DNA of 60,059 nucleotides from Patescibacteria group bacterium (GCA_027858235.1 JAQIDC010000028.1:77184-137242), one strand, 5' to 3'; shown: positions 1 through 19,654, counted from the first letter of the stretch. The notes: generated by a model not told the origin, from the sequence alone. Program-made: numbers and translations.

Positions 1-2
1 AG

Positions 3-344
3 GAACACTTCATCGTAATCTATTTATGCCCGTCTCGGAAAAATCCAAAGTGTGAACTGATCAGCCTCGGCACCTTAACCGCCTGTCTTGTACATCCTCG
101 AGAAGTCTTCCATCCTGCTATCAAATACAAATCAACTGATATTATTGTCCTTCACAACCACCCTAGTGGAGATGTCTCCCCCTCTGAAGCTGATATTCAA
201 TTAACTGAGAGATTAAAAAATGCCGGGCAACTGCTCGGCATTAATGTTTTGGATCATGTGATATTTGAAAAAGGAGATCGGTTTTATTCGTTTTGTAATG
301 AAAACCAAATATATAAAAAATATTTACAAAGAAAAACTAATTAA
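3..344 (+). CDS. radC: RadC-like JAB/JAMM domain protein, C-terminal part (5' end outside window)
   Basis: Open frame from the window edge to TAA 342-344. Translation: ...ISLGTLTACLVHPREVFHPAIKYKSTDIIVLHNHPSGDVSPSEADIQLTERLKNAGQLLGINVLDHVIFEKGDRFYSF... HNHPSGD is the RadC/JAMM signature. Not in the ORF track because the start lies outside the window. Confidence 0.8.
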   Translation, partial: EHFIVIYLCPSRKNPKCELISLGTLTACLVHPREVFHPAIKYKSTDIIVLHNHPSGDVSPSEADIQLTERLKNAGQLLGINVLDHVIFEKGDRFYSFCNENQIYKKYLQRKTN

Positions 345-3267
345 AACGCATTGCCTTATCACCATTATAGTCAATCTTAATCTGAGCATCGGTCAAAATA
401 TAATTATATAATCTTATCTCATCAATTTGTCCGTCAAAATACCCAGATCCAATTCGCCCTATTTCCATATCGCTCGCTGTTATGCCAGTATTTGTGGTTA
501 TCAAAATATGATTCCAGGAACCAGCTGTAACTGATCCGCCTGCCGTTGTATTTACATAAATAGACGGACTGGAAAAACCAAATGCGCTCACATTTCCAGA
601 CGATATTGTAACCGTATGCGTACCGCCATCAAAATCTATTATATCTTCAGTCGCACTATCTGGCTTTATCCAAAAACTGATAGTTTTCGTTATTACTCCT
701 GTGTCTCCTATATCAGCATAATCATCTGTACCGTCAAAACTCAAACTTGACTCAAACTTTCCACTTAGTCCATTATACCAGGCACTTACCGCCGACAAAG
801 TTGTGCAGGTGCCGGTAGCAGTTTGAGTTCCTCCTCCACCAACAATCAAACTACCATCATGAGCATTCCCTGAGTAATCGTAAACACTGTTGCCTTGACA
901 TTCGTTAAATTGCCAATATGCGCTTGCCTTCCCTCTATTATAATCCCAAGCTATCTGTGCCGGGGTGCGATCATAATCGTAAAAATAAATATGGTCAATA
1001 AAGCCTTTGAAATAATCGGAGCTAATCCTCCCAATATCAACCGCACTGGCATCGATACCTGTCCCAGTAGTAATAGTCACATAATGCCAATTAGTATCAG
1101 TTGTCGACGATACTACGCTGTCTAAATAAATCGACGGATTGACAAAATTATTTGCTGTCAACTTGCCTGACACCACTTCAATGTTTGCTGTTCCATTCAA
1201 GTCTAACACTTTCTCATTAGCACTGTTCGTTTTTAGCCAAAACGCTATTGTTTTAACTCCGTCATAAGCATTCCCCACAGAAACATAGTCATTGGCACCA
1301 TCAAACTCTAGACAATTACCCAGTTTACATTTATATGCCCCCCACCACTTTGGAGAACTTGCCAAACTTACAAATACTCCGTCACTTCCCTGTCCACTCT
1401 TATCGAAAGTAGTTGTACCAACTTTTTCATCCAATTTTAATTCCAATACCGGTGGATCACAAACAGAGGTGTCACCGGGTACGCAATATTTCCGAGATTT
1501 AGAGTAGCTCGGAGTTTTACCATCCGCTTCAGTAGACACGCTTCCCATTATTACGGCTTTCCCTTGATTTAATTCTATTTTTATATTATCCGTCGTTAGG
1601 GCATAATCCCAAATTTTAACTTCATCTAACAAGCCGGAAAAATAATCATTGCCGACCCGACCAATATCAAAATCATTCACATCGATTTGCTCAGAACTCA
1701 CAATAACAACATGATGCCAAGCAGTGTCAATGACGGAAGATTCAAATCCGTCAACATAAATTGTAGTGCTTGAAAATCCATTTGCCTGGATAGAACCTGA
1801 ATTTAAAGTGACAGTATGCGTTCCATTATCAAAATCCATCACACTGTCCGTCAAAGCATTTGCCTTAATCCAAAAACCAAACGCTGTAGAGCTAGCTTGA
1901 TTTATATCTCCCACATCAATCCAATCATCAGTTCCGTCGAATTCTACCGCACCATCCATTTTTCCATTTTGACTCCACATATCAACAGCCGATGTGTTGC
2001 TTCCGCTGGTCGAGGCAATCAACGATCCGTTTTTACCATTTAAACTAAAATCGTGACACAAGGAACCATAACCCTCATTAAAATTCCAATGTGCCACTGG
2101 AGCGCTCCCTTTAGTGCCGTTTAACATATAAGCACTATAAGAATATAAACCTATTGATTTTAATACTGGCGAGTAGCTATTGTCATTTACCAATGAAAAT
2201 TTTAGCTTATAGTAAAAGTTTGTTTCGCCACCCCAATTCAGCCCAGACAGACTGACTGCCCGACCAGCTGTTATGTTGTCACCAAAAGATAAATCATCCC
2301 AAGACCAGGCTGTGCCATCTGACGAATACCAATTACTGCCATCACTGGAAAACTGTGCTTTGACACTCGCCCCATACGGCATGTACGAAATCGCATATCC
2401 AAACCACTCATAACCGGTTAGTGGATCGGTAGTGGACGCCAAAAAATCCGATGAAACAAGAACACCAGTCCAATTATAATCTGAGCCGGTGAGCGGTGGA
2501 GCATCCGTACCATCATAAACTACACGTGCCTCAGTAAGCTTTGGCTGAACGGCTGGATCAATCATCGCTTCCAGACGTATTTTATAATAAAAACTGGCAC
2601 CGATCCAAGAAAGACCGGTCAAATCGATATTGTTGTCACCGTCACTCAAATCTGTCCAAGCGCCCTTTGTTCCACTGGCCGAATAAAAAGAAGATTTGTC
2701 CTGAGAAAAAGTAACCCGCGCCATTGATCCGGATGGCAAAGAAGTGGTAGCGTAAAAATTTGTAATCGAATTAACAGTAGCGCCTGATAACAAATTGTTA
2801 GATAAAATTATCCCCCATGAGCCATATCTGCTTGAAGTAGCGGTCGGTACATCTGTGCCGTCATAATTAACTCTTATTTCCCCCACTGTCGGAGTAGAGC
2901 TTGCGTCGGTCGTAGTGAGTTTTAATTTATAAAAAAGTAGCGCCCCAGTCCATGCTAGATCAGACATATCAATAATTGTTGTTCCGCTTGCAACATCTGT
3001 CCAAGCGCCTTTGGTACTTGAAGCGTTATAATACACAGTTTTATCTTGAGAAAAACTGATTGCCACGCTTGTTGAGGCTGGAATAGAAGCTGTAACATGA
3101 AAATTGTTAATATCACTTATGTCAGCTCCCGACAAAACATTATTTGACTTGAGTATTCCGCTTGCATAATAGCTTTCTGCCTTAGCTGAATTACAAGCAA
3201 AAACACCGACCAAAATTGTCAGGCTAAAAAAAACTCCTAAAAATGTAAATATTTTTAATTTATGCAT
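337..3267 (-). CDS. Secreted/anchored surface protein: three N-terminal ~110-aa tandem repeats plus three LamG (concanavalin-like lectin) modules
   Basis: 976-aa ORF with an N-terminal hydrophobic segment (IFTFLGVFFSLTILVGVFA). Three repeats: ..FSQDKTVYYNASSTKGAWTD.. / ..FSQDKSSFYSASGTKGAWTD.. / ..FSSDGSNWYSSDGTAWSWDD.. Three LamG-like modules: FDGTDDWIDVGD...LLDEVKIWDYALT; FDGANDYVSVGN...FIDHIYFYDYDRT; FDGTDDYADIGD...QIDEIRLYNYILT. Starts 12 nt after the RT stop on the same strand. Confidence 0.75.
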   Translation of the reverse strand: MHKLKIFTFLGVFFSLTILVGVFACNSAKAESYYASGILKSNNVLSGADISDINNFHVTASIPASTSVAISFSQDKTVYYNASSTKGAWTDVASGTTIIDMSDLAWTGALLFYKLKLTTTDASSTPTVGEIRVNYDGTDVPTATSSRYGSWGIILSNNLLSGATVNSITNFYATTSLPSGSMARVTFSQDKSSFYSASGTKGAWTDLSDGDNNIDLTGLSWIGASFYYKIRLEAMIDPAVQPKLTEARVVYDGTDAPPLTGSDYNWTGVLVSSDFLASTTDPLTGYEWFGYAISYMPYGASVKAQFSSDGSNWYSSDGTAWSWDDLSFGDNITAGRAVSLSGLNWGGETNFYYKLKFSLVNDNSYSPVLKSIGLYSYSAYMLNGTKGSAPVAHWNFNEGYGSLCHDFSLNGKNGSLIASTSGSNTSAVDMWSQNGKMDGAVEFDGTDDWIDVGDINQASSTAFGFWIKANALTDSVMDFDNGTHTVTLNSGSIQANGFSSTTIYVDGFESSVIDTAWHHVVIVSSEQIDVNDFDIGRVGNDYFSGLLDEVKIWDYALTTDNIKIELNQGKAVIMGSVSTEADGKTPSYSKSRKYCVPGDTSVCDPPVLELKLDEKVGTTTFDKSGQGSDGVFVSLASSPKWWGAYKCKLGNCLEFDGANDYVSVGNAYDGVKTIAFWLKTNSANEKVLDLNGTANIEVVSGKLTANNFVNPSIYLDSVVSSTTDTNWHYVTITTGTGIDASAVDIGRISSDYFKGFIDHIYFYDYDRTPAQIAWDYNRGKASAYWQFNECQGNSVYDYSGNAHDGSLIVGGGGTQTATGTCTTLSAVSAWYNGLSGKFESSLSFDGTDDYADIGDTGVITKTISFWIKPDSATEDIIDFDGGTHTVTISSGNVSAFGFSSPSIYVNTTAGGSVTAGSWNHILITTNTGITASDMEIGRIGSGYFDGQIDEIRLYNYILTDAQIKIDYNGDKAMRFN

Positions 3268-3279
3268 TTATATAAACTT

Positions 3280-4446
3280 TCATTTTTTCAATTTTAAATA
3301 ACTTATTTTTTTGTCCGAATTCAGAAAATTCTTAAACACACCCAAATGATTCTCAAAAATGTCTTTTTTAAGATTAAAGCAATACGAGTGGCTGAAATGT
3401 CCATAATATGAATTAATCTGGGACAAAATATCAACCAAATCTTCTTTTTCAACTCTCCTGTTATCTTTAAATATTTTATTTGCCTGATACAGCTTATTCT
3501 TTAAGCGCCGAACCACTTTTTGCCTGGATAATATTAAATTCGGCTTGATAAAATAACCGATAAAATCAATCCCTTTTTTTATAGATTGTATCTTGGTTTT
3601 ATTCTTGTTAAGCGACATCCCCAAAGTCTTGCTTAAAAATATATCGATCTCTACTCGCCACTTTTTAAGCTGATCGCAGTTTTCGTGAAGCAGAATAAAA
3701 TCATCTACATAACGGATATAATAACGACATTTTAATGTTCTTTTTACAAAATAATCCAATTCATTCAAATAAAGATTGGCAAAAAACTGTGATGAATAAT
3801 TACCAATCGGCAAGCCCCTGAATTCATCTTGATGCAGTAGTGATTTATGCGGTGGTATTAAGCTAAATAAAGTTCGGTCACCCTTGGCATAATAATTATC
3901 TTTCGGTCGGTGGAATATAATCGTTTTAGCTAGCCACAACACATCTTCTTGCCATTTTTTACTCCGTTTATGTTTCATGATTAGCCTTTCGGCCAACTTG
4001 AATAAAATCCGCTGATCAATAGACATAAAAAACCCTCTGATATCCAACTGAGCGTAAAAAATTTCTTTCTTATGATTAACTGTAATCTGCCGAATAAAAT
4101 CTCGTAATCTTTTGATTGCACGATGCGTGCCTTTTCCTGGACGACAGGCAAAGGAATCATGAATAAAAATCCGTTCTCCTTTATCTATAATTTCTCTGAT
4201 TAGCAAGTGGTGGACGATTCTATCTCGAAAATCAGCTGCGAATATTTCCCTTGGTACTGGCCTGGTAACCACAAAGCAGATTGATCGTCCGGGTCGATAA
4301 ACTCTAGCTTTCAATTCACTCAAAAGTAAATCAAGGTTTTTCTCATAATCCCACTCAAACTTTAAAGCATTGATCGTCTTTCTCTTAGTCTTCCGGCAAT
4401 CAAGATAAGCTTGAAATAGCTTAGTATAGGTAAACATTTCATTCAT
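3280..4446 (-). CDS. Diversity-generating retroelement (DGR) reverse transcriptase
   Basis: 388-aa ORF with RT motifs, including PIGNYSSQ (DGR-type [ILV]GxxxSQ) and a YVDD catalytic box. ATGA start/stop overlap with the upstream avd-like ORF. A TR/VR pair lies immediately upstream. Confidence 0.9.
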   Translation of the reverse strand: MNEMFTYTKLFQAYLDCRKTKRKTINALKFEWDYEKNLDLLLSELKARVYRPGRSICFVVTRPVPREIFAADFRDRIVHHLLIREIIDKGERIFIHDSFACRPGKGTHRAIKRLRDFIRQITVNHKKEIFYAQLDIRGFFMSIDQRILFKLAERLIMKHKRSKKWQEDVLWLAKTIIFHRPKDNYYAKGDRTLFSLIPPHKSLLHQDEFRGLPIGNYSSQFFANLYLNELDYFVKRTLKCRYYIRYVDDFILLHENCDQLKKWRVEIDIFLSKTLGMSLNKNKTKIQSIKKGIDFIGYFIKPNLILSRQKVVRRLKNKLYQANKIFKDNRRVEKEDLVDILSQINSYYGHFSHSYCFNLKKDIFENHLGVFKNFLNSDKKISYLKLKK

Positions 4447-4841
4447 ATATCTGGTTGCTGATCGACTGAATTATTGCATGGATTTTGGATTTTTTCCGCC
4501 CATTTTAGCCAGCCTCCGATCATTTCACCGATCTCCTTTAAATAACAGCCGTGGAGATGAACGAATTGCTTTTGCGAAATTATATTCAACTCCTGCATCA
4601 TACGCAAGCGTAGTTTTAGTTTGTCAAAACATGAACTCAGACAAAGTATTCTTTCATGTTTTTTTAAATTTTCAAGAACATTAATATCAAACACCAAATC
4701 CAAACACTGCCAACATAAAGTCAACGCGTCCTCGGCCAACGAATATTTGTATTGCTTTGGTGTATTTTGGAATATTTTGTATAGTATTTTTATCAATTGA
4801 TATAACTTACGATACAAAGGTAATTTATTTTGATGAAACAT
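4443..4841 (-). CDS. avd: DGR accessory variability determinant (Avd-like helical protein)
   Basis: 132-aa ORF between TR and RT, translationally coupled to RT (ATGA). Size and position are typical of Avd four-helix-bundle proteins. Called from context; homology cannot be verified here. Confidence 0.75.
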   Translation of the reverse strand: MFHQNKLPLYRKLYQLIKILYKIFQNTPKQYKYSLAEDALTLCWQCLDLVFDINVLENLKKHERILCLSSCFDKLKLRLRMMQELNIISQKQFVHLHGCYLKEIGEMIGGWLKWAEKIQNPCNNSVDQQPDI

Positions 4842-4908
4842 GGAAATTTTGCTGGAAACCCGGCTTCCACAGATGAAACCAGGTTATCCATTTGAGCTAA
4901 AATTGATT

Positions 4909-5039
4909 ACCCTCGGACACAACGCACTGAGTTGCTATTCGTCTTATTGTTGTTGTTCGTATTGCCGTCTGTGAAGTTCACGTTCCGGGCGTTCGTGTCA
5001 GAGTTCTCAGTACTAGACCAGTGGTTGCCCGTCCCAAAA
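4909..5039 (-). repeat. DGR template repeat (TR)
   Basis: 131 nt, gap-free alignment with 5290-5420 at a constant offset of 381. The coding-strand reading contains 12 AAY codons (FGTGNHWSSTENSDTNARNVNFTDGNTNNNNKTNSNSVRCVRG). Non-coding location, 67 nt upstream of avd. Confidence 0.9.
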
Positions 5040-5083
5040 CATATATCCCTGCACTAATTAATTCTCCGCTAGTCTGATTCCAT

Positions 5084-5099
5084 AATTTGCATGCAAATT
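5084..5099. promoter_or_regulatory. Perfect 16-bp palindrome AATTTGCATGCAAATT upstream of TR
   Basis: Read directly in the TR-VR spacer, 45 nt upstream (minus-strand sense) of the TR 5' end. Any operator or promoter role is inference. Confidence 0.3.
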
Positions 5100-5284
5100 C
5101 GGGTTAAAGACTGGCTGACTTACAATACTCCCCGTAAAAAAGGAGTGGCAGGAATCGTGGTAAATTTTAGCGCTCACTCCCGCAAAAGTCTTTTTATAAA
5201 AAAGCGCTTTTACGGCTCTGGCAAAATATCCAAATTTTTCAAATTACAAATTAAAAAAATTCCAAATTACCAAATATCCCAATT

Positions 5285-5974
5285 CTACCACCCTCGGACA
5301 CAACGCACTGAGTAGCTAGTCGTCTTACCGTAGTAGTCCGTATAGCCGTCTGTGAAGACCACGAGCCGGGCGTACGTGTCAGAGGCCTCAGTACTAGACC
5401 AGTGGGCGCCCGTCCCAAAATTACCATTAAAACTAGCCTGATTAGCGTAAATACACTGCAATTCAGAAACAGTCGGCAATCGGCCACCGATATTCTTGCA
5501 TGCCTGCCTAGCTGGATAATCTGTATAATTTATCGTATTATCCGCATCTAGATTATCTCCATCCTGTCCGCCATCTTGTAGACACTCAGGTAGATCACAA
5601 GCCGTATTGGCATTCTTCCATTGTTTTGTTCCGCTTATAGTTGTCGAGGCGACAACAATATACGCACCATCGCCGAAATCATTCTCGCAAACATCATCCG
5701 AAGCACAAATCCAAACAGCACTATCACATGTACGTACCGAAAGTTTAACCTCTCCGGCACCTGTATCAACATCTACCTGCCAAGTGTCAGATACCCGAGA
5801 TGTATCAGTAAAACTGTCAATCAATTCGCCGGCCAAAGCTACAAAACTTTTACCCCAAATAAAAATCACGAGTGTTAAAAGCAATATGCCCACAATTGCA
5901 ATTTTTGTTTTCTTGCTTGTAATAAAAAATTTTCTCAAAAAACCAACATCTGTATCTTTCTTGGCTTTATTCAT
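5285..5974 (-). CDS. DGR target protein: membrane-anchored, DUF1566/C-type-lectin-fold-like C-terminus carrying the VR
   Basis: 229 aa. K-rich N-terminus plus one TM helix (IAIVGILLLTLVIFIW). The C-terminus ..GGRLPTVSELQCIY..HWSSTEASD..SVRCVRGW resembles known DGR variable proteins. The last 44 codons coincide with the VR. Confidence 0.85.
   Translation of the reverse strand: MNKAKKDTDVGFLRKFFITSKKTKIAIVGILLLTLVIFIWGKSFVALAGELIDSFTDTSRVSDTWQVDVDTGAGEVKLSVRTCDSAVWICASDDVCENDFGDGAYIVVASTTISGTKQWKNANTACDLPECLQDGGQDGDNLDADNTINYTDYPARQACKNIGGRLPTVSELQCIYANQASFNGNFGTGAHWSSTEASDTYARLVVFTDGYTDYYGKTTSYSVRCVRGW
5290..5420 (-). repeat. DGR variable repeat (VR) at the 3' end of the target gene
   Basis: 17 mismatches to TR. 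All are at plus-strand T of TR (coding-strand A), substituted by A, C or G. All other bases are identical. Confidence 0.9.
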
Positions 5975-6202
5975 ATATTTTATACTTACTTCGCACTGAA
6001 AAAAATTAATTTTACAGTAAACAAAATTATATTATATATTTTTAATTATTTACTTATTTTATAATATTATTATACAACTATTTAATTTTTATTTCAAACC
6101 CTAGCAAATTCATAAACGGCCAACAGCGAAAGCAAAAGATGAAAATATCAAAAAAATTCTTCATAGGTTATTTGCTTTGTATTTGGCATATATTTAAATT
6201 AT

Positions 6203-6601
6203 TTATAATTCTCCTGACTCAATCAATCGCTTCAATATATTAGGCTCTGACTTAAGATTGATTAATATAATTTTATCTTTAGCATTATGTTTAGCTAGAA
6301 CATCCAGCTCAGCTTGCATTGTATAATCATCCAGCCAACGAAAGTCTTGACTATAATCAATTGCTTCGGTTTTAAGAGTATTCCAATCTGTAACTTTAAT
6401 CTTATTAAGAGTGGATAAAGAAGACTCTGGTAATTTATCAGAAAGATGAAATTTAGCATTATTCTCTTGACCACGACAATGAGTCGTTAACCAAAAAACA
6501 TTATGATGATTAGTTATATAATCCAAAAATTCCGCTACACATTCTGCGGGTTTCCCGTCTTTTGTAATTAATACTCCATCAATGTCTAAATATATATTCA
6601 T
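6203..6601 (-). CDS. HAD-superfamily-like small hydrolase
   Basis: 132 aa. N-terminal YLDIDGVL (HAD motif I, DxDG), WLTT and WLDD motifs further on. Confidence 0.5.
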   Translation of the reverse strand: MNIYLDIDGVLITKDGKPAECVAEFLDYITNHHNVFWLTTHCRGQENNAKFHLSDKLPESSLSTLNKIKVTDWNTLKTEAIDYSQDFRWLDDYTMQAELDVLAKHNAKDKIILINLKSEPNILKRLIESGEL

Positions 6602-6607
6602 TAATAA

Positions 6608-7201
6608 TTATTTATATAATTCAATTCCGCCTCTGTGACTTGGAAAATTACCCGAATTGGAAAATGCCCACAAAAATGCATTAGACAAGATTTTCCCGTT
6701 TTTCTTGCCGGTAAACTGATAATCACATTCAGGTATAATTTTAAGTTGTTTTTTTTGTGGCTGAATTACTTTCATCAAAACAAAACTTAGCAATCTCTCC
6801 TGTGCCAATTTCATCATCCGCTCCAGCTACTAAATATATCTCTCTCGCATAATTTCGTAATCCCCTGACCACATTCTCCTTGTTTACACTATCGGCTGGT
6901 GCGACAAGTAAAACCTTTTTTAATTTATAAAATTCTTCCAATATAATTGCTATAGCACTTGCCCCAGCTGAAACACCAGCTAAGCTCACCTCTATTTCCT
7001 TGCTCCCAATGATAGTTTCTGCATACGGCAAATTAGTAGAGCAATATTTATTATCTATCCTTATTACTGTAGCGATATTCTTCGCCTGGAGCATGTTGGC
7101 CAATTTTGTATATTTACGATTATACCCCTCAATACTTCCATCAGCTCCTGGATAAAAAATAATAACTGATTTATTTTCTGGTTATGTGTATTAATAAACA
7201 T
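6608..7201 (-). pseudogene. Decayed alpha/beta-hydrolase gene (at least two frame disruptions)
   Basis: Three frame pieces. MFINTHNQKI.. starts at the ATG at 7201. KSVIIFYPGADGS...GVSAGAS (GxSxG nucleophile elbow)...LVAGADDE is the track ORF 6741-7103. ..KQLKIIPECDYQF... is the track ORF 6608-6817. The last junction lies in an A8 run (plus-strand T8, 6749-6756). Deleting one A would fuse the two frames. Confidence 0.5.
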
Positions 7202-7211
7202 ACTTAATTGG

Positions 7212-8741
7212 CTATGCTTTACAATATAAAATTTCTTTATTCTCTAAATGCATCAAAAATTCCTCAATAGTTTTTGGCAAAATATCGAGATTATCTTTTT
7301 CTTTTACAAAATCAATCTGTCGCTCTGAATCTTTAAATATACTTGGTGCGATAAAGTAACACATTGATTCTCTGGCTGTTTTACTAAACTCTTCAAGATG
7401 TCTAGTTATCGGCCATATTTCCATCATAGTTTGAGATCGTCCCTCAGACATCGTAACTTCAATCAATATTCCATTGTCATCTTCATGACATTCAATATCT
7501 CCCTTATTGCCAACTCCACCAGCAGTAGATGTTGGTAGCCCTTCATCATCAGTCGGATAATTTGGAATAACTCTCACATCTGGAAATTTAGTCTTTACTG
7601 CAAGTGCTGATAAAAATTCTAATCTAACTGGGTTTGATAAATATTTCAAAATATCATCCTTGGACATTCTTTTTTGGGCAAGATTCATCATCTCCTCCTT
7701 TATCTGGTCCCAACTATAAATATTAACCCATTTGATTAATAACTCATCTCTTTCATCAATAGTTACAAGTTTGGCTTCAGCTAATATTAAATTATCATCT
7801 ATCTCGGACATGTATTTAAAGTACTCTTCCCCTGAATCATATTTTTTATATTCAGAATAATTTTCTAGCACATAATCTACTTTCTTTTGTTCATTCTTAT
7901 TAATATCAACAAAGCGACCACCGCCTCTCAATGAAATTAACCCCGTAAGCCTCATTTTTCTTATAAACTCATCAGGGTATTCTGACATTATTGATTTTGG
8001 TTTAAACTTTTTAAAATTACCTTCCATTATTTCATCAACACAAATCTCAACAATAACCTCCCAGCTAGGCTTATAACCATGTTCCTTTCTGATCCTCTTA
8101 ATTAATTGATAAAGTTTTTCTGAATCGTTATCTTTCCAAAAAATAATCAGAGGGAGTTCTAATTTTGATATACCTGCATCATTACACTCTTCATCTCTAT
8201 TCAATTTCGAAATTACTTCAAGTAACAAAACAAGCGGTACATTCTCATTGAGCACTCGCCTAAACGGACTATTGCTTTGGTATTTTACAAACGCATTCAA
8301 AAAAGCTTGTTGTTCAAATTCAGGATGTTCGCTATCAACTAACTTTAATCCTATTTCAGAAAATCTTATTTTTTCGCCACTCTTGTAATAAACAAAACCA
8401 AGCTCTTTGGCAAATTTAAACCATGTATCAAATCTTGAAGGCCACCCCTTGTTAAATCCAGCCTCTTTATGATTTTGAGGATTGTCTCTTAATACTCTTG
8501 AAACTTCCGTGTCGGTTAATGGATTTTTTTCTAAAATCTTATTTTTTACAGTTGTGGTTAAATTCATTGGTTTGTATAAACCAACTCTTATTATTTCTCC
8601 TGAAATTTTTTCAGCCAATTGATCGTCAAGAACTTGATTGTCATAATCTTTTAGCACTGCCAAAAACCACTTCAACCTTTCAGGGTTTCTCATGGTGGTT
8701 GTAAATAATAAAGGTTTATATTCCGAATTTCGTTTTGTCAT
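7212..8741 (-). CDS. Restriction endonuclease, AlwI/MlyI/PleI/Nt.BstNBI-family-like (type IIS)
   Basis: 509 aa. The N-terminal ..TTTMRNPERL.. and the C-terminal ..GDIECHEDDNGILIEVTMSEGRSQTMMEIWPITRH.. resemble the SPRxPEK and D..E..EVT.S.G..Q...E..PVTRH core I recall for this family. Last gene of an operon with two adenine MTases. Confidence 0.6.
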   Translation of the reverse strand: MTKRNSEYKPLLFTTTMRNPERLKWFLAVLKDYDNQVLDDQLAEKISGEIIRVGLYKPMNLTTTVKNKILEKNPLTDTEVSRVLRDNPQNHKEAGFNKGWPSRFDTWFKFAKELGFVYYKSGEKIRFSEIGLKLVDSEHPEFEQQAFLNAFVKYQSNSPFRRVLNENVPLVLLLEVISKLNRDEECNDAGISKLELPLIIFWKDNDSEKLYQLIKRIRKEHGYKPSWEVIVEICVDEIMEGNFKKFKPKSIMSEYPDEFIRKMRLTGLISLRGGGRFVDINKNEQKKVDYVLENYSEYKKYDSGEEYFKYMSEIDDNLILAEAKLVTIDERDELLIKWVNIYSWDQIKEEMMNLAQKRMSKDDILKYLSNPVRLEFLSALAVKTKFPDVRVIPNYPTDDEGLPTSTAGGVGNKGDIECHEDDNGILIEVTMSEGRSQTMMEIWPITRHLEEFSKTARESMCYFIAPSIFKDSERQIDFVKEKDNLDILPKTIEEFLMHLENKEILYCKA

Positions 8742-8745
8742 ACAA

Positions 8746-9651
8746 TTAATAGTTAGTAACCAAGACCTCCTTTATATCTTTTTTACCATTATTATGGTAG
8801 CTAATATAATTACTTTTAATCTTATATACTTTATATTTTTTCATCCATTTAATCAAGTGTCCGTTAGTGCTTCCGTTATAATGTGTTACATTAGACAATG
8901 CAAACCTGATTTTTCTCTTATTTAATTCGTCAATTGTTTTTAGTAAATCTTTTTCTGATTCTTCATTCCATATCTTATTATACTCACTAAACGTAATTAA
9001 ATATGGTGGGTCTAAATACACAAAATCATTTTCTGTAATTTTTTTACTGGCAAAAAATTTCCTAAAATCTTTTACGCTTATTATTGTTTTTCTCTCTTTA
9101 ACAATATTGAAATAATTATTTAGGGCGTTCAATACATTTTTATTAAAATCAACGTTACCCACAGGTAAGTTGAATTTACCACCGCCATTAAACCTAAGCA
9201 TTCTGTTAAATCCGTATATAAGCAATATGTATAAAATCAGCGGGTCATTTTTTATATTCTTATTAACACGTTTTTTTAATTCCTCATACCCCTCTTTATT
9301 ATATTTTGCAAAATAGGTTTTTTTGAATTCTTGCCTAAGCAAAGCTGGTATTACGTCCTCTTTGTATGACCTAGATAGATTATATTTATAAATTATTTTT
9401 TCTACATCTTTAAAAAATTTATCTGGATTCTTAGAGCTTTCAATTAAAAATTTATGAATGCCCATTAAATTTTTGTCTATATCATTTAGATAGTATTTTT
9501 TAGCTTCAATATTTAAAAAAACAGTTCCGCCGCCAGTAAAGGGTTCATAAAAATTATCAATTTCTTTTGGAAAAAAATCAATCAACTGTTTCATTAACTT
9601 ATATTTATCTCCCACATAAAAAAGTGGCGATCTTTTAATAGTTTTATTCAT
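8746..9651 (-). CDS. D12-class (Dam-like) N6-adenine DNA methyltransferase
   Basis: 301 aa. FYVGDKYKL, EPFTGGGTVF (AdoMet motif I) and LDPPY (motif IV) occur in the alpha-group order. Confidence 0.85.
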   Translation of the reverse strand: MNKTIKRSPLFYVGDKYKLMKQLIDFFPKEIDNFYEPFTGGGTVFLNIEAKKYYLNDIDKNLMGIHKFLIESSKNPDKFFKDVEKIIYKYNLSRSYKEDVIPALLRQEFKKTYFAKYNKEGYEELKKRVNKNIKNDPLILYILLIYGFNRMLRFNGGGKFNLPVGNVDFNKNVLNALNNYFNIVKERKTIISVKDFRKFFASKKITENDFVYLDPPYLITFSEYNKIWNEESEKDLLKTIDELNKRKIRFALSNVTHYNGSTNGHLIKWMKKYKVYKIKSNYISYHNNGKKDIKEVLVTNY

Positions 9652-9652
9652 G

Positions 9653-11458
9653 TCAAACTTTGGTTACAAATAAATATTCTTTGTGATTATTGAAATTTGT
9701 ATTACCAGCGTTAAAGTGTTTATGATTTTTTTCAAAAACTTTAGTTTTGCCTTTTTTAGTTAATATATCCTTAATTTCTTGAAGTGTAATTTTATTCTTT
9801 GATGAATTACTCTTTGGTTCGTAGGTGTTATTATATGAAACCACAAGATATTTTGCATCTATATCCCTTACTAAATCATCAAATCTATGCTTGGCACTAA
9901 CTCTACAATAGTCGCTCATATTTTCAGGTTCCGGTTTAAGGGCCACTCCATGCAATTCTGGTTTATCCCATTTTGTAAGAGTTTCTAAAACATGATAAAA
10001 ACGGCTATACTGTCTGGAATTATACGGTGGATCGATATAGGCCACATCTGCTCTTATTTTTTTAACCAATTCATTTGTATCTTCCCTGTAAATTGACACT
10101 TTATTTATTTCTATAGGATCAATGGGTCGCATAAAAAATGCATCTTCAACATTGTCTTTCTTAAAATAAGCATCATAATGGCCAACCGTATTAGCTATTT
10201 TGTCGATAGTATACAGCAATGAGGCAATAAGCATGTGATACTCTTTGCTCGTTAAGTTAGCTTTGTTCTCTTCAATATTTTCCCTGACTGCACCAATCAC
10301 TTTTGCTGAATTCTGACTAAAATATTTTCCACCAAAATTCTCTGAAAAATAATTGTCTTCCAGATCATCCCCGCATATATTGTTATAGTCCTTGATTATA
10401 TTATCAATTTTATTTTTATCCCATTTTCCGTTACCAAAAAATGCCTGATAAACTGCATAGTTTGAAAAAAGAAAATCATTTAAAATCACTTCTTTAAAAT
10501 GTTTGGTTGCAACTGCAGATACAACGCCTGTACCTGCAAAAACGTCTGCGAATGAATCACCCTTGCACTCTTTTTCAAGTATAGAAAAAATCCATTCAAT
10601 TAATTTATACTTACTACCAATATATCTTCTGTTTTGCAACTGGAGATGATTTTTTTTAATTTGAGGGGTATAAAAATAAGTTTCTTGAATTTTTTCCGCG
10701 CTAACTTCATAAGATGGTTTTTCAGTTTCCATTGAATTAAACAATGTGCCCTGCACTCCATCAGAAACGTAATCCAAGTTTTTATCTTGGCCTTTTAATT
10801 TATCATAAAAACTATAACCTCCGTTATTCTTAGCTGTTATAATGAAATCGGTAACTGGTATTCCCATTAACTCTCCTGCTTGAGTGATCTTCTCAACTAT
10901 TTTTATATCTTTTTCACTTGGCGTAGGATCACCTGAGGGGTGATTATGCACTAATATAATACTAGCTGAATTAAGCTCTACTGCTGGTTGAAATATTTCT
11001 CTGGGATGCAATAAACTTTTATCCAAAAGACCTATACTTATTACTTCTTTTTTAATCACTACATTTCGAGCATTCAAGTATAAACAAATTAAATATTCCT
11101 TTTTTTTATCTCTTAAATCTAAAGTTAAGGATAATGCATCGTTTGAGCTCTTAATTACAATTTCGTCACCGTTCTCTTCTTCATAATATCTCCTAACTAA
11201 AGAAATTGCAGATACTATCTGCAATGCTTTAGCTTGCCCGATTCCTGAGATAGTCAGCAAATCATCAACTTTAATATTTAAAAAATTCTTTCCAAATTTC
11301 TTGATTATTTGCTGGGATAAAACTTTAACATTTTTACCTTTTATTCCACTTCCAAGTAGTATAGCCAAAAGATCAGACTTTGAAAGAGCTTCTGGCCCCT
11401 TTTTTAAAAACTTTTCTCTTGGTCTGTCTATTTTTGGTATATTTTTTATTTTTGTCAT
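9653..11458 (-). CDS. Fusion protein: full-length RadC (HhH + JAB, HNHPSGD) fused to a D12-class N6-adenine DNA methyltransferase
   Basis: 601-aa uninterrupted ORF. Residues 1-~225 look like RadC (..LLAILLGSG..ISGIGQAKA..LHPREIF..ILVHNHPSGDPTPSEKD..). The C-terminal half has RRYIGSKYKL, DVFAGTGVV (motif I) and IDPPYNSRQYSRFYH (motif IV). Confidence 0.8.
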   Translation of the reverse strand: MTKIKNIPKIDRPREKFLKKGPEALSKSDLLAILLGSGIKGKNVKVLSQQIIKKFGKNFLNIKVDDLLTISGIGQAKALQIVSAISLVRRYYEEENGDEIVIKSSNDALSLTLDLRDKKKEYLICLYLNARNVVIKKEVISIGLLDKSLLHPREIFQPAVELNSASIILVHNHPSGDPTPSEKDIKIVEKITQAGELMGIPVTDFIITAKNNGGYSFYDKLKGQDKNLDYVSDGVQGTLFNSMETEKPSYEVSAEKIQETYFYTPQIKKNHLQLQNRRYIGSKYKLIEWIFSILEKECKGDSFADVFAGTGVVSAVATKHFKEVILNDFLFSNYAVYQAFFGNGKWDKNKIDNIIKDYNNICGDDLEDNYFSENFGGKYFSQNSAKVIGAVRENIEENKANLTSKEYHMLIASLLYTIDKIANTVGHYDAYFKKDNVEDAFFMRPIDPIEINKVSIYREDTNELVKKIRADVAYIDPPYNSRQYSRFYHVLETLTKWDKPELHGVALKPEPENMSDYCRVSAKHRFDDLVRDIDAKYLVVSYNNTYEPKSNSSKNKITLQEIKDILTKKGKTKVFEKNHKHFNAGNTNFNNHKEYLFVTKV

Positions 11459-11583
11459 TATACTTGAATATACTACATAAAAATCGCTAATTTACGATAA
11501 TTAATTATATTTATATTTTACTATTTTTAGCATTTAAATACAAGTAGAAATATCAAAAATAGACCACAATTATCCCCAAAAGT

Positions 11584-11612
11584 CAAAAAGATAGGTCCAA
11601 TCAAACCTATCT
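11584..11612 (-). terminator. Rho-independent terminator after the last phage-side gene
   Basis: Minus-strand RNA forms GAUAGGU-uugauugg-ACCUAUC followed by UUUUU. Sits 32 nt downstream of the stop at 11644. Confidence 0.5.
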
Positions 11613-11643
11613 CAATAACTTCTTATAAAAAATTTATCAATTT

Positions 11644-11991
11644 TCAACAAAATTCTATTTCAAACTGCTTATTTTTAAAATATTCTATTATCCGTTTATC
11701 TTTCCCTCTACTACCTAAATTCCAACTTTTAATTATTTCGAGTGGTTGATTATTTTTGTAATCATAAATAGTAAATACTAATCGCTTATCGTTCTTCATG
11801 ATAAACGCCCACTCTACTCTAACCTTGCTATCTCTCGACTCCCATTCTCCCTCCTTAGTACAATCATGTGGCTCACCAAATTTTTCTTTTAGTTCTTTAA
11901 AACTTGCGTGGACTGTGCCAATTCGACTTGTTCCAATAGTTGACTTCTTGGTTGCACTTTTAATTTTGAAATCTATTTTTAAGTTTTTCAT
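11644..11991 (-). CDS. Hypothetical protein (phage accessory/moron position)
   Basis: 115-aa ORF downstream of the lysis genes. No recognisable motif. Confidence 0.45.
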   Translation of the reverse strand: MKNLKIDFKIKSATKKSTIGTSRIGTVHASFKELKEKFGEPHDCTKEGEWESRDSKVRVEWAFIMKNDKRLVFTIYDYKNNQPLEIIKSWNLGSRGKDKRIIEYFKNKQFEIEFC

Positions 11992-12187
11992 ATCCTTTCA
12001 TGATAATTAAAATAATCTTTACACTTAACCCAGACAACTTAGCTACTTCTCCGACATTAAACATATTAGTTGCACCCGACAATCTAACATTTTCATAACA
12101 AATAAATTGTTCTTTGGTTATATTTTTCATATTGTGTTGGATGTTAACGTAATAAAAACCACATGGCAAGTCATTTATTCTCACCAA
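11960..12187 (-). CDS. Hypothetical small protein (start possibly the internal Met at 12130)
   Basis: 75-aa ORF. ..FICYENVRLSGATNMFNV.. recalls small phage proteins of unknown function. Confidence 0.4.
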   Translation of the reverse strand: MVRINDLPCGFYYVNIQHNMKNITKEQFICYENVRLSGATNMFNVGEVAKLSGLSVKIILIIMKGYEKLKNRFQN

Positions 12188-12202
12188 TATTAAACGCTTT
12201 TC

Positions 12203-12718
12203 TTATAGCTTTTTGGCTAATTCCAATACTTCTCCTAATAATTTAATTAACTTCTCCTTGTCGCTACTCCCAACTTCAACAGTTTGCACCAAGCTACGAA
12301 TAAAATTAATATCCATGTTTTTACCCGGGCAAGACTTGCTCGCAAAATCTCGATGAAAGATAATATTGTTTTTATTAATTTGATATTGCTGAACTAATTT
12401 CTTGAGCAAATCACGCAAAGCGAATACTTGTGTTGACGCTGGTTTTTCAATATCAAAATTTCCATCTAAACAAATATGAATACACTGCCCACTGTTCATA
12501 TCTCCCTGATAGCATGCCACTGTCTTCTCTCCATCCTTACGAGCTTGTCTAATGCGACCATTCTTGGCAATTTCGTAGTTGTACCCCAAATAGTATCCTA
12601 GAGAGCTGACAAGCCCCCATCTCCCTTTGTGGACTCTGTTATTTGCCTCAAATTGATCAGAATTTTTGTTATATGACACAGCACTGTGATGTATCATAAT
12701 ATATTTTGGTTTTTCCAT
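12203..12718 (-). CDS. N-acetylmuramoyl-L-alanine amidase (Amidase_2/PGRP-type endolysin)
   Basis: IMIHHSA...GYNYEI..NG.I...R......A......N...IHICLDGNFD...HRDF..KSCPG motifs. Start moved to the ATG at 12718 (MEKPKYIMIHH), 2 nt after the upstream stop. Confidence 0.85.
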   Translation of the reverse strand: MEKPKYIMIHHSAVSYNKNSDQFEANNRVHKGRWGLVSSLGYYLGYNYEIAKNGRIRQARKDGEKTVACYQGDMNSGQCIHICLDGNFDIEKPASTQVFALRDLLKKLVQQYQINKNNIIFHRDFASKSCPGKNMDINFIRSLVQTVEVGSSDKEKLIKLLGEVLELAKKL

Positions 12719-12720
12719 AA

Positions 12721-12948
12721 TTATTTGCTTATTACCATATAAATAAAATTTAAAATATTCCCAATCCCAAGTAAACCAACAAACCATTTAAGGTTTTTAA
12801 TTGTTGTTGCCACTTCAATTCTGAACTGGGTATTTTTCTTTACATTCCCATTGGTCTCGTCCAATCTCTTAATAATACCCTTGTGACCATTCGAATTGTC
12901 ATGTTTTAAGTCCTTGATTTTATCAAGAATCAAATCCAGTTTATCCAT
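12721..12948 (-). CDS. Small tail-anchored membrane protein (holin/lysis accessory candidate)
   Basis: 75 aa with a C-terminal TM segment WFVGLLGIGNILNFIYMVI. Lies between the two-TM ORF and the amidase. Confidence 0.45.
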   Translation of the reverse strand: MDKLDLILDKIKDLKHDNSNGHKGIIKRLDETNGNVKKNTQFRIEVATTIKNLKWFVGLLGIGNILNFIYMVISK

Positions 12949-12949
12949 A

Positions 12950-13114: not shown

Positions 13115-13133
13115 ACGATTATAAAATTAATAA

Positions 13134-14858: not shown

Positions 14859-14869
14859 ATTTAAAAATA

Positions 14870-16033: not shown

Positions 16034-16037
16034 ATTT

Positions 16038-17537: not shown

Positions 17538-17538
17538 A

Positions 17539-19650: not shown

Positions 19651-19654
19651 ATAT

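What the first reader, a model, noticed from the sequence alone, without database searches (positions are those of the whole stretch)
3280..5974. Complete diversity-generating retroelement: target(VR) - TR - avd - RT
The minus-strand order is:
- target ORF (5974->5285) with the VR at its 3' end
- 250-nt spacer
- TR
- 67-nt spacer
- 132-aa avd-like ORF
- RT, with an ATGA overlap to avd

TR (4909-5039) and VR (5290-5420) align gap-free over 131 nt at a constant offset of 381, with 17 mismatches. Every mismatch is a plus-strand T in TR, meaning an A on the coding strand. Each is replaced in VR by A, C or G, and no other base differs. This is the adenine-specific signature of DGR mutagenic retrohoming. 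The RT carries IGNYSSQ and YVDD motifs. The two repeats stand out as GC-rich islands in an AT-rich background.

DGRs are a known system class, but this cassette looks intact. It sits between a surface-protein gene and an R-M/prophage block in what seems to be a small-genome organism.
Basis: partly seen in the sequence, partly recalled or inferred. Interest (0 to 1): 0.8.

Follow-up and report, generated by a model that had tools for sequence, protein, structure and literature searches.

The report
Active DGR on a CPR prophage
This is a complete diversity-generating retroelement that was rewriting the tip of a small membrane-anchored lectin-like protein in wild populations; it is a known kind of system, here carried by a prophage of an ultra-small (CPR) bacterium and always paired with a large secreted LamG protein.

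Summary
TR 4909-5039 and VR 5290-5420 (minus strand) align without gaps over 131 nt. They have 17 mismatches, all at TR adenines (chance 1.6e-10) and all in positions 1 or 2 of AAY codons.

The genes fit a DGR. The RT's best solved relative is the Bordetella phage DGR RT, and it keeps the IGxxxSQ/YVDD motifs. avd is a bAvd. The target's C-terminal domain is C-type-lectin-like.

The element is active. Another assembly of the same genome differs from the window at 15 of 14,446 bases, all in VR at TR-adenine positions. A 95%-identical relative carries three non-A TR changes, and its VR copies all three.

Context beyond the finding:
- The cassette lies inside a ~35-kb prophage integrated into the 3' end of ftsZ.
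- The target is a membrane-anchored, Cys-rich protein, not a recognisable virion protein.
- The 976-aa LamG gene after the RT is a conserved partner, found in all relatives examined with enough flanking DNA. One natural LamG-target fusion exists.

Verdict: a genuine, active DGR and a new member of a known kind (CPR-type DGRs). Interest is moderate.

The parts
6069..6097 (-). Promoter-like site (TTGAAA-17-TATAAT, 11 of 12) about 95 nt upstream of the target start codon
   Evidence: It lies inside the block that is 95% conserved with L085. This is a consensus match only.
5285..5974 (-). DGR target gene (229 aa): Lys-rich N-terminus, one transmembrane helix (about residues 25-45), then an 8-Cys ectodomain with a C-type-lectin-like fold
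   Evidence: Pfam Lcl_C/DUF1566 at 35.1 bits against a cut-off of 34.9. Hydropathy peak of 2.33 at residues 27-45, and the 8 Cys positions; all 8 are invariant or nearly invariant in the 46-sequence family alignment. AF2 pLDDT is 85-97 for residues 80-229. Foldseek top hits are the Legionella Lcl C-terminal domain 8q4e (TM 0.64), Bd2740 and classical C-type lectins.
5290..5420 (-). Variable repeat (VR), covering the last 43 codons of the target
5040..5289 (-). VR-TR spacer: target stop codon, an AT-rich stretch and several hairpins (for example CCGTAAAAG...CTTTTGCGG; GGGAGTG...CACTCC followed by a T-run)
   Evidence: There is no GC-rich GRNA hairpin within 4-34 bp of VR. Its function is not established.
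4909..5039 (-). Template repeat (TR), non-coding, with 41 A including 12 AAY codons in the VR frame
   Evidence: It is identical in all five assemblies of this element.
4854..4889 (-). Predicted stem-loop 20-55 nt 3' of TR (GGAUAACCUGGUUUC-AUCUGUG-GAAGCCGGGUUUCC), a candidate Avd/RT-binding element of the DGR RNA
   Evidence: A stem-loop occurs at the same place in the TR-avd-RT relatives examined. This class of element is described in bioRxiv 10.1101/2023.10.23.563531. There is no covariation support.
4443..4841 (-). avd (132 aa), accessory variability determinant
   Evidence: Pfam bAvd PF22296, E 8.6e-15, 55.6 bits against a cut-off of 40. NCBIfam DivGenRetAVD, E 1.9e-17, full length, but 63.5 bits against a cut-off of 80.
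3280..4446 (-). DGR reverse transcriptase (388 aa), translationally coupled to avd by an ATGA overlap
   Evidence: RVT_1, E 1.6e-19. Best PDB match is 8ub7_A, E 2.9e-34. IGNYSSQ matches the [I/V/L]GxxxSQ signature. R66, I214 and Q220 align with bRT R74, I181 and Q187. YVDD is present.
337..3267 (-). Conserved partner gene (976 aa): signal peptide, three ~125-aa N-terminal repeats with no Pfam match, then a C-terminal LamG region. It starts 12 nt after the RT stop.
   Evidence: Pfam Laminin_G_3, two stretches reported; the three-repeat reading of the C-terminal half is from the sequence. Homologues lie next to the DGR or target in every relative examined with enough flanking DNA. A natural fusion with a target-like domain exists (P0188). 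It contains no VR.
33069..33099 (-). attL core: the last 10 codons plus stop of ftsZ (TCCAGCCTTTATTCGAAAAAAGATGATGTAA), repeated just after the integrase beyond the window start
   Evidence: 31 nt, 90-94% identity, E 3e-5 to 8e-7. It is the only copy in the window.
1..33068 (-). Integrated ~35-kb prophage, which continues about 1.9 kb beyond window position 1 through RadC and the integrase to attR. Gene order on the minus strand: replication, ParB-MTase, terminase, portal, capsid, tail, endolysin, R-M system, DGR, LamG.
   Evidence: PHROGs, Pfam, gene lists for L081, att repeats.

Best explanation
This is a complete diversity-generating retroelement that was active recently.

Proposed mechanism, step by step:
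1. An RNA containing TR (4909-5039) and its 3' spacer is bound by the Avd-RT complex. The two genes are translationally coupled.
2. The RT copies TR into cDNA faithfully, except opposite adenines, where it inserts any base.
3. The cDNA replaces VR (5290-5420) at the 3' end of the target gene. It is guided by the invariant 13-nt 5' and 24-nt 3' identity segments.
4. This randomises 12 Asn (AAY) codons. Each can become 15 amino acids and never a stop, giving about 1.3e14 possible proteins.
5. The randomised positions lie in the C-terminal strands of the predicted C-type-lectin-like domain.
6. The target has one N-terminal membrane helix and a disulfide-rich ectodomain.
7. The cassette, together with a conserved secreted LamG partner protein, is cargo of a ~35-kb temperate phage integrated into the 3' end of ftsZ. 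The host is a CPR bacterium resembling Moranbacteria.
8. The cassette therefore most likely diversifies a cell-surface binding protein of the lysogen rather than a virion fibre.

What is shown:
- the adenine-only footprint;
- VR change between isogenic genomes;
- TR-to-VR copying of non-A changes;
- protein family and fold assignments;
- the element boundaries.

What is inferred from the BPP-1 paradigm:
- RNA binding, cis-priming and the cDNA integration chemistry;
- surface display, the ligand and the benefit to the host.
For: Footprint:
- 17 of 17 TR/VR mismatches are at TR adenines, P = 1.6e-10, all in AAY codon positions 1 or 2.

Activity:
- L081, a different JGI sample, is identical to the window over 14,446 nt except at 15 positions. 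All 15 are in VR at TR-adenine positions.
- TR is identical in all five assemblies.
- Three other assemblies break or carry an N-gap exactly at VR or TR.

Directional copying:
- In the 95%-identical relative L085, TR differs from the window TR at three non-A positions (C9T, C76T, G126A), and its VR carries the same three changes.
- All 14 of its own TR/VR mismatches are at A.

Proteins:
- The RT's best PDB match is 8ub7_A, E 2.9e-34. The published bRT numbering (R74, I181, Q187) fits that chain.
- The IGxxxSQ and YVDD motifs are present.
- The RT is 44% identical to RTs of GenBank Pseudomonas, Burkholderia and Shewanella phages, annotated there only as RT or retron-type RT.
- Avd matches Pfam and NCBIfam models.
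- The target has a CLec-like fold.

Homologous cassettes:
- Homologous cassettes show A-biased TR/VR pairs, with 0-2 non-A mismatches each.
- The named protein and locus relatives are CPR or DPANN.

Prophage:
- Phage structural genes are present.
- The ftsZ-3'-end core is repeated after the integrase, with a single copy in the window.

Surface-protein reading:
- TM helix and 8 conserved Cys.
- Orthologous cassettes sit in chromosomal surface-protein neighbourhoods without phage structural genes.
Against: - No reads were mapped, so within-sample heterogeneity is inferred only from assembly breaks and between-sample differences.
- BPP-1-type target elements were not found. There is no GC-rich GRNA hairpin 4-34 bp after VR, and no upstream/downstream duplex around TR better than shuffled controls.
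- The stem-loop 3' of TR is a prediction without covariation support.
- No convincing promoter for the TR RNA was found.
- The NCBIfam Avd score is below its curated cut-off.
- L085 carries the same target-to-integrase block behind entirely different upstream genes. Whether the DGR always travels with this phage is therefore open.
- Surface localisation and the role of the LamG partner are untested.
Confidence: 0.93

Rival explanations
1. This is a phage tropism-switching DGR of the BPP-1 type. The 229-aa target, and perhaps the LamG protein, would be virion receptor-binding proteins diversified to follow changes in the host receptor.
For: - The cassette lies inside the att-bounded prophage, downstream of the tail and lysis genes.
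- The RT is 44% identical to RTs of cultured phages.
- ConA/LamG-like domains do occur in phage fibres (my own knowledge).
Against: - The target has an N-terminal transmembrane anchor and the LamG protein has a signal peptide. Neither is expected for virion proteins assembled in the cytoplasm.
- The target, avd and RT were not scanned against PHROGs, so absence of a structural-protein match was not tested for them.
- The cassette is separated from the tail module by the endolysin gene and an R-M system.
- Orthologous target-DGR-LamG cassettes sit in chromosomal neighbourhoods without phage structural genes (L087, L176, L086, L184).
- There is no BPP-1-type hairpin after VR.
Confidence: 0.08
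2. The DGR-LamG-RadC-integrase block is an independent integrative island, or old chromosomal DNA, that merely abuts the prophage. It is not phage cargo.
For: - L085 shares only window 1 to about 6206 (95% identity). Upstream it has a type I R-M system, Dcm, HATPase and NOV_C genes instead of the AlwI R-M system and phage genes.
- The homology starts immediately after the stop codons of the unrelated upstream genes.
- Related cassettes are chromosomal elsewhere.
Against: - Only one copy of the ftsZ att core occurs in the window, at the far side of the phage genes. The next copy is just after the integrase.
- No internal att copy separates the phage genes from the DGR block.
- All genes from 32 kb to the integrase are co-directional.
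- The L085 contig could not be extended to see whether phage genes lie further upstream (one search found nothing).
Confidence: 0.15
3. This is a relic DGR. The TR/VR footprint records past activity, and the element no longer diversifies.
For: One relative, L174, has its RT split into 131-aa and 218-aa ORFs and no detectable A-biased repeat pair. Decay therefore does occur in this family.
Against: - All ORFs are intact and the RT catalytic motifs are present.
- Two assemblies are otherwise 100% identical over 14.4 kb yet differ at 15 VR positions. This requires VR turnover that is fast relative to the background substitution rate.
Confidence: 0.04
4. The RT belongs to another prokaryotic RT system (retron, group II intron, or a defence-associated DRT/UG RT), and the repeat is coincidental.
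For: There are weak sub-threshold hits to the group II (93.6 bits against a 300 cut-off), retron St85 and Drt3a models, and to PADLOC UG/DRT profiles. This is expected for any RT domain.
Against: - All of these hits are far below their curated cut-offs.
- The bRT match is about 23 orders of magnitude better than any group II RT in the PDB.
- Rfam finds no group II intron or retron RNA anywhere in the window.
- An Avd gene is present, and so is the adenine-specific footprint.
Confidence: 0.01

Closest known systems
CPR/DPANN diversity-generating retroelements (Paul et al. 2017, cited from memory; the 'CPR set' with architecture B3 in Wu et al. 2018, PMC5758913; DGR clade 2 in Roux et al. 2021, PMC8144416)
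   Same: - The RT's closest relatives (55-82% identity) are from CPR bacteria where they are named.
- TR precedes avd, which precedes the RT. Wu et al. report this order for 90% of CPR DGRs.
- There is a single adjacent target with a C-terminal VR.
   Different: - Roux et al. describe CPR DGRs as almost entirely cell-encoded, with targets usually lacking a recognisable TM or conserved domain.
- Here the cassette is inside a prophage, and the target has a clear TM helix plus an Lcl_C/DUF1566 domain.
- avd is co-directional with the RT and overlaps it, whereas the B3 notation of Wu et al. marks avd as reverse-oriented.
- Placement in clade 2 itself was not tested.
Bordetella phage BPP-1 DGR (mtd-avd-TR-brt)
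   Same: - Adenine-specific TR-to-VR transfer.
- The RT is homologous to bRT (E 2.9e-34), with the R74 and I181 equivalents and the IGxxxSQ motif conserved.
- An Avd partner is present.
- The variable protein has a CLec-fold domain with the VR at its C-terminus.
- It is carried by a temperate phage.
   Different: - Gene order is target-TR-avd-RT, so only 67 nt of non-coding spacer follow TR, against a 140-nt Sp in BPP-1.
- There is no GC-rich GRNA hairpin 4-34 bp after VR, and no supported duplex flanking TR.
- The target is a small membrane-anchored protein, not the tail-fibre tip protein Mtd.
Legionella pneumophila DGR (LdtA, a DUF1566/CLec2 target; category 'd' of Wu et al.)
   Same: - The target matches the same domain family (Lcl_C/DUF1566).
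- Its best structural match is the Legionella Lcl C-terminal domain.
- It is a short target consisting mostly of that domain.
- It is predicted to be surface-exposed with conserved cysteines.
- The cassette sits on a mobile element.
   Different: - The anchor is an N-terminal TM helix rather than a lipoprotein/TAT signal.
- The cassette order differs (avd-TR-RT in Legionella).
- The host is a CPR bacterium.
- A conserved LamG partner gene is present.

Membership tests
Diversity-generating retroelement (DGR) | Near-identical TR/VR pair whose differences are confined to adenines of TR | tested here: met
   131 nt, 17 of 17 mismatches at TR-A, all 90 non-A positions identical, P = 1.6e-10.
Diversity-generating retroelement (DGR) | RT of the DGR type: [I/V/L]GxxxSQ in motif 4, YxDD catalytic motif, closest to known DGR RTs | tested here: met
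   IGNYSSQ and YVDD are present. 8ub7_A (bRT) scores E 2.9e-34, against 5.8e-11 for the best group II RT. The bRT R74, I181 and Q187 equivalents are conserved. No full RT phylogeny was built.
Diversity-generating retroelement (DGR) | VR at the 3' end of a protein-coding target, in a C-type-lectin-fold domain, with variable sites at AAY codons | tested here: met
   VR covers the last 43 codons, with 12 AAY codons. Pfam Lcl_C matches. AF2 plus Foldseek indicate a CLec-like fold.
Diversity-generating retroelement (DGR) | Avd accessory protein next to the RT | tested here: met
   Pfam bAvd is above its cut-off. NCBIfam DivGenRetAVD matches full length at E 1.9e-17 but below its cut-off. There is a 4-nt overlap with the RT.
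Diversity-generating retroelement (DGR) | Ongoing unidirectional TR-to-VR transfer (VR varies, TR does not; TR changes propagate to VR) | tested here: met
   The window and L081 differ at 15 of 14,446 nt, all in VR at TR-A sites, with TR identical. In L085, three non-A TR substitutions are mirrored in VR. Read-level heterogeneity could not be tested.
Diversity-generating retroelement (DGR) | Structured RNA 3' of TR (Avd-binding stem-loop) and an upstream/downstream duplex, as in the bRT-Avd-RNA structure | tested here: inconclusive
   A stem-loop is predicted at 4854-4889 and at the equivalent place in relatives. The sequences are not alignable, so there is no covariation test. The duplex is no better than shuffled controls.
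BPP-1-type phage DGR target site | GC-rich 7-10-bp hairpin with a GRNA tetraloop 4-34 bp downstream of VR (Guo et al. 2011, PMC3240598) | tested here: not met
   The sequence after VR is AT-rich. The nearest stable hairpins start about 50 and 75 nt downstream and lack GRNA loops. The fold z-score is -1.7.
Diversity-generating retroelement (DGR) | Adenine-mutagenic, cis-primed cDNA synthesis by RT-Avd | not testable with these tools
   This needs biochemical reconstitution or cDNA sequencing.
Group II intron | Ribozyme RNA domains around the RT ORF, and an RT reaching the maturase family score | tested here: not met
   Rfam finds no family above gathering score in the 60-kb window. TIGR04416 scores 93.6 bits against a 300 cut-off.
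Retron / defence-associated RT (DRT, UG) | RT reaching the family-specific score, msr/msd RNA, and an effector gene | tested here: not met
   Retron St85 scores 56 bits against a 235 cut-off and Drt3a 49 against 200. There is no retron RNA in Rfam. The PADLOC UG/DRT hits are weaker than the generic RT profile.

The most novel reading that the evidence does not exclude
The small membrane-anchored CLec target and the large secreted LamG protein (three N-terminal repeats of an undescribed domain plus LamG domains) may form a conserved two-component surface module in Moranbacteria-like CPR bacteria. In that reading the DGR is built into the operon to diversify only the small subunit.

A temperate phage that integrates into ftsZ would then have captured the whole module with its DGR. 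Lysogeny would give the ultra-small host a hypervariable surface binder, for example for attaching to its partner cell or for excluding other phages.

This would make the LamG protein a previously unlisted DGR-linked component. It would also make this a case of DGR-based lysogenic conversion in the CPR.
Probability: 0.35. Interest if true: 0.6.

Novelty: new member of a known kind. Interest (0 to 1): 0.4.

Why it matters
DGRs are the only known natural machines for targeted protein hypermutation in prokaryotes. They are abundant in CPR bacteria, where almost nothing is known about what they diversify or whether phages carry them.

This locus offers three things:
- A clean natural before-and-after pair: two genomes identical over 14.4 kb except for 15 adenine-templated VR changes.
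- A CPR target with an interpretable topology: a TM anchor and a disulfide-rich lectin-like ectodomain.
- Two testable links: carriage on a prophage with a defined att site in ftsZ, and an obligate-looking LamG partner.

None of this changes the DGR paradigm. It does give a well-defined cassette for reconstitution and for asking what CPR cells recognise with these proteins.

Tried and rejected
- A second VR or remote target in the window: none was found, at 60% or more non-A identity over the full length or 85% over 40-nt windows.
- tRNA genes as att sites: none in the window, L081 or L085.
- Rfam: no hits at gathering thresholds.
- A 14-nt direct repeat (window 32451 / L081 14987) was considered as the att site. 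It was dropped in favour of the 31-nt ftsZ-end core.
- A cPRT-stop-like duplex between the TR flanks: no better than shuffled controls.
- A BPP-1-type hairpin after VR: absent.
- Covariation test of the stem-loop 3' of TR: not possible. Relatives are either almost identical (L085) or not alignable.
- Metagenome scan with the RT: only loci at 44% identity or less. Viral scan: only 33-36% identity. Neither yielded closer cassettes.
- Extending the L085 contig upstream by exact-pattern search of GTDB representatives: no match.
- P0002, the 82%-identical RT: no DNA was available.
- Avd against PDB sequences: no hit.
- Paul et al. 2017 could not be read.
Full report
**1. Observation**

The repeat finder recovers the pair independently: 4909-5039 and 5290-5420, 131 nt, 87% identity, spacing 381.

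On the minus (coding) strand the two copies differ at 17 positions.
- At every one, TR has A and VR has T (7), G (6) or C (4).
- All 90 non-A positions are identical.
- Given 41 A in 131 nt, the chance that 17 random mismatch positions all fall on A is 1.6e-10.
- All 17 lie in the first or second position of 12 AAC/AAT codons when TR is read in the VR frame. TR encodes FGTGNHWSSTENSDTNARNVNFTDGNTNNNNKTNSNSVRCVRG. VR encodes FGTGAHWSSTEASDTYARLVVFTDGYTDYYGKTTSYSVRCVRG.

Homology stops sharply on both sides.

The stated layout is correct: a 250-nt and a 67-nt spacer, an ATGA overlap between avd and RT, and the IGNYSSQ and YVDD motifs. TR is 50% G+C in a 35% G+C window, and there is no other VR-like copy in the 60 kb.

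**2. The genes**

*RT (3280-4446).*
- It has an RVT_1 domain, E 1.6e-19.
- Among all PDB sequences its best match is 8ub7_A (328 aa), E 2.9e-34. The next best, a group II maturase RT, scores 5.8e-11.
- The residue numbering of that chain (R74, I181-G-S-L-T-S-Q187) is the numbering published for the Bordetella phage bRT. There, R74 and I181 promote adenine mutagenesis, and I181 and Q187 bracket the DGR signature [I/V/L]GxxxSQ (PMC7826257).
- The window RT has R66, I214 and Q220 at the aligned positions.
- Curated NCBIfam models for group II, retron St85 and Drt3a RTs are hit only far below their cut-offs.
- PADLOC DRT/UG profiles score below a generic RT profile.
- Rfam finds no group II or retron RNA in the window.

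*avd (4443-4841).*
- It matches Pfam bAvd above threshold.
- It matches NCBIfam DivGenRetAVD over its full length at E 1.9e-17, but at 63.5 bits, below the curated 80-bit cut-off.

*Target (5285-5974).*
- It matches Pfam Lcl_C (formerly DUF1566) just above threshold.
- With a 46-sequence alignment, AlphaFold2 gives pLDDT 85-97 for residues about 80-229.
- Foldseek's best hits are the Legionella Lcl C-terminal domain (8q4e, TM 0.64) and Bdellovibrio Bd2740. These are followed by many classical C-type lectin domains and FGE-type domains.
- The N-terminus is Lys-rich and is followed by a 19-residue hydrophobic stretch (KD 2.33 at residues 27-45).
- The ectodomain has eight cysteines, all invariant or nearly invariant across the family.
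- This points to a type II membrane anchor with a disulfide-bonded extracytoplasmic lectin-like domain. This topology is an inference.

**3. Evidence that it is active**

The exact RT protein occurs on contigs from three JGI metagenomes and one SRA run.

- *L081.* It aligns to the window over 14,446 nt with 15 differences. All 15 lie in VR, and all are at positions where TR has A. TR and everything else are identical. The two VRs encode different proteins at 10 of the 12 Asn-templated codons.
- *The other three assemblies.* They fail at this spot. L082 has a run of N from VR position 14 to TR position 14. L083 starts at the first base of TR. L084 starts inside VR after the variable part. This is what a heterogeneous VR plus a repeat would do to an assembler. 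It is not proof.
- *L085 (GCA_003934915.1).* It is 95% identical over 6.2 kb. Its TR differs from the window TR at three non-A positions (C9T, C76T, G126A), and its VR has the same three bases. Its 14 TR/VR mismatches are again all at A.

TR information is therefore copied into VR across at least positions 9-126. This is the directional homing expected of a DGR.

Across the three VRs, 25 of the 41 TR adenines have changed. These include A68 and A80 outside AAY codons, so mutagenesis is not limited to the Asn codons.

**4. Mechanism and departures from the prototype**

By homology the mechanism is the BPP-1 one. Avd-RT binds a TR-containing RNA and makes cis-primed cDNA with misincorporation opposite A. 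The cDNA then replaces VR.

Features relevant to that model:
- A strong promoter-like site lies 95 nt upstream of the target (6097-6069).
- No convincing promoter was found between VR and TR.
- A stable stem-loop is predicted 20-55 nt 3' of TR (4854-4889). A stem-loop occurs at the equivalent place in the relatives with the same gene order that were examined.
- This matches the 'Avd-binding stem-loop just downstream of TR' reported for 207 of 278 DGRs (bioRxiv 10.1101/2023.10.23.563531).
- The sequences are not alignable, so I have no covariation support.

Features not found:
- The upstream/downstream duplex described in that work is no better than shuffled controls here.
- The GC-rich GRNA hairpin that phage DGRs carry 4-34 bp after VR (PMC3240598) is absent.

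Gene order is target-TR-avd-RT.
- In my survey of 103 DGR loci related by RT, this order is the one used by the closest relatives (RT identity 50% or more).
- The more distant, mostly archaeal, loci have TR about 50 nt upstream of the RT.
- Wu et al. report TR-avd-RT order (their B3) for 90% of CPR DGRs. The order is therefore typical for the lineage.

**5. Organism and mobile-element context**

*Host.*
- Named homologues of the RT are CPR bacteria (Falkowbacteria, Nealsonbacteria, Paceibacterota and others).
- Named homologues of the target are all Candidatus Moranbacteria/Moraniibacteriota.
- From about 33 kb the window encodes FtsZ, FtsA, a Na+/H+ antiporter and giant T4SS-pilin-domain proteins.

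*Prophage.*
- Window positions 12-32 kb encode a phage module: a replication ATPase, a ParB-methyltransferase, terminase, portal, major capsid, tail, tape measure and baseplate proteins. The gene list for L081 adds an Amidase_2 endolysin.
- Then follow an R-M system (a RadC-Dam fusion, a second methyltransferase and an AlwI-type endonuclease), two small ORFs, the DGR and the LamG gene.
- L081 shows that RadC and a tyrosine integrase follow just beyond the window start.

*Boundaries.*
- The last 31 nt of ftsZ (window 33069-33099, encoding PAFIRKKMM plus the stop) recur immediately after the integrase.
- They recur again 4.3 kb further on, after an integrase-less island. They also follow the integrase in L085.
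- The window has only the one copy.
- The simplest reading is a ~35-kb temperate phage integrated into the 3' end of ftsZ, with the R-M system and the DGR-LamG block as cargo near the integrase end. A second small element sits in tandem at the same site.

*Caveat.*
- L085 has the same target-to-integrase block behind unrelated defence genes. I could not extend that contig.
- The block is therefore modular, and its permanent linkage to this phage is not shown.

*Relation to known phages.*
- The portal is at most 31% identical, over half its length, to any GenBank phage.
- The RT is 44% identical to RTs of several cultured Pseudomonas, Burkholderia and Shewanella phages.

**6. A conserved partner gene**

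The 976-aa ORF that starts 12 nt after the RT (337-3267) has:
- a signal peptide;
- three ~125-aa repeats with no Pfam match (motifs FSQD..YY.A.GTKG.W, L.W.G..FYYK);
- a C-terminal LamG (Laminin_G_3) region.

*Starting from the DGR.* A homologue lies next to the DGR in every close relative with enough flanking DNA. These are L085, L174, L175, L176/L177, L087/L088, L002, L003 and L011. L086 adds an array of nine Lcl_C-type paralogues interleaved with two LamG proteins. Among the more distant DGR loci (RT identity 44% or less), none showed similarity at E<1e-6 (15 of 177 loci hit, all close relatives), though many of those loci have little downstream sequence.

*Starting from the LamG side.*
- An alignment of the N-terminal module found five loci among GTDB representatives. 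All five have a target homologue just upstream, and four have avd, RT and an A-biased TR/VR pair in between.
- Three further family members from the large protein database again sit next to an Lcl_C gene, a DGR RT, or both.
- One of these, P0188, is a natural fusion: signal peptide, three repeats, a LamG domain and a complete target-like lectin ectodomain.

Synteny plus this fusion argue that the diversified small protein and the LamG protein work together. What they do is unknown. This gene is not among the DGR accessory genes listed by Wu et al., which are avd, HRDC, MSL and CH1.

**7. Comparison and verdict**

All sequence-testable defining features of a DGR are met, and activity is documented by natural variation. 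The locus belongs with the CPR-type DGRs, so it is a new member of a known kind.

It departs from the general description of CPR DGRs in Roux et al. 2021, which calls them almost entirely cell-encoded with targets lacking a recognisable TM or other domain. It is prophage-borne, and its target is a TM-anchored DUF1566-type protein like the Legionella LdtA class. It departs from BPP-1 in gene order, target type and the absence of the post-VR hairpin.

A specialist would not be surprised by the DGR itself. The isogenic VR pair, the ftsZ att site and the LamG partner make it a useful, well-defined example. Interest is 0.4.

Noticed in passing
window 337-3267 (-); L085, L174-L186: The 976-aa signal-peptide protein (three novel N-terminal repeats plus a LamG region) is syntenic with the DGR or its target in every relative examined with enough flanking DNA. 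One homologue (P0188, L183 970-3054) is fused to a target-like lectin domain.
   Followed up: yes
window 33069-33099; L081 about 16270-16300 and 20625-20655: The 3' end of ftsZ (PAFIRKKMM plus stop) serves as the attachment core. It is present three times in the source genome. The copies bound the ~35-kb prophage and a tandem 4.2-kb integrase-less island (a DUF4143 AAA ATPase plus two unknown genes).
   Followed up: partly
window 9653-11458 (-), 8746-9651 (-), 7212-8741 (-): The prophage carries an R-M system: an unusual RadC/JAB-Dam methyltransferase fusion (601 aa), a second D12-class methyltransferase and an AlwI-family endonuclease. L085 has a type I R-M system, a Dcm methyltransferase and a HATPase at the equivalent position, which suggests a defence-cargo hotspot just upstream of the DGR.
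   Followed up: partly
L176 10638-11201; L087 13595-16249; L183 6388-6732: Relatives carry a second Avd-like four-helix-bundle gene (PF05635, 23S_rRNA_IVP) next to the LamG gene. In L087 it is fused to the N-terminus of the LamG protein. The window lacks it.
   Followed up: no
L086 8385-19150 (1.27-Mb Moraniibacteriota contig): An array of nine ~220-aa paralogues of the target is interleaved with two ~1150-aa LamG proteins. No RT or A-biased repeat was detected within the 20 kb seen.
   Followed up: no
L174 1771-3246: A relative whose target is 69% identical has its RT region split into 131-aa and 218-aa ORFs and no detectable TR/VR pair. It is probably a decaying copy of the same cassette.
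   Followed up: no
window 5128-5200 (-): The VR-TR spacer contains overlapping hairpins, one followed by a T-run (GGGAGTG...CACTCC TTTTTT, and ACTCC-TTTTTTACG-GGAGT). This could be a terminator or a switch between the target mRNA and the TR RNA. The simple terminator scan did not detect it.
   Followed up: no
L184 (contig end 7 nt before the RT), L186, L083, L084: Contigs of unrelated assemblies end at or just beside the TR/VR region of these cassettes. This suggests that DGR repeats and VR heterogeneity systematically break short-read assemblies there.
   Followed up: no
window 43928-50191 (-), 50192-52030 (-), 38431-41329 (-): The host region encodes a 2087-aa protein and a 612-aa protein with N-terminal T4SS_pilin domains plus fn3/Big_5 domains. 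It also encodes TSP3-repeat and He_PIG proteins. This is a large surface-protein cluster, typical of CPR genomes.
   Followed up: no
window 28503-29741 (-): The prophage encodes a ParB-like nuclease domain fused to a DNA methyltransferase (phrog_498), next to the terminase gene.
   Followed up: no
window 6203-6601 (-): This 132-aa ORF begins MNIYLDIDGVL, a HAD-like DxDG motif, and has no family hit. The 95% homology with L085 begins immediately after its stop codon, which marks the upstream edge of the conserved DGR block.
   Followed up: partly
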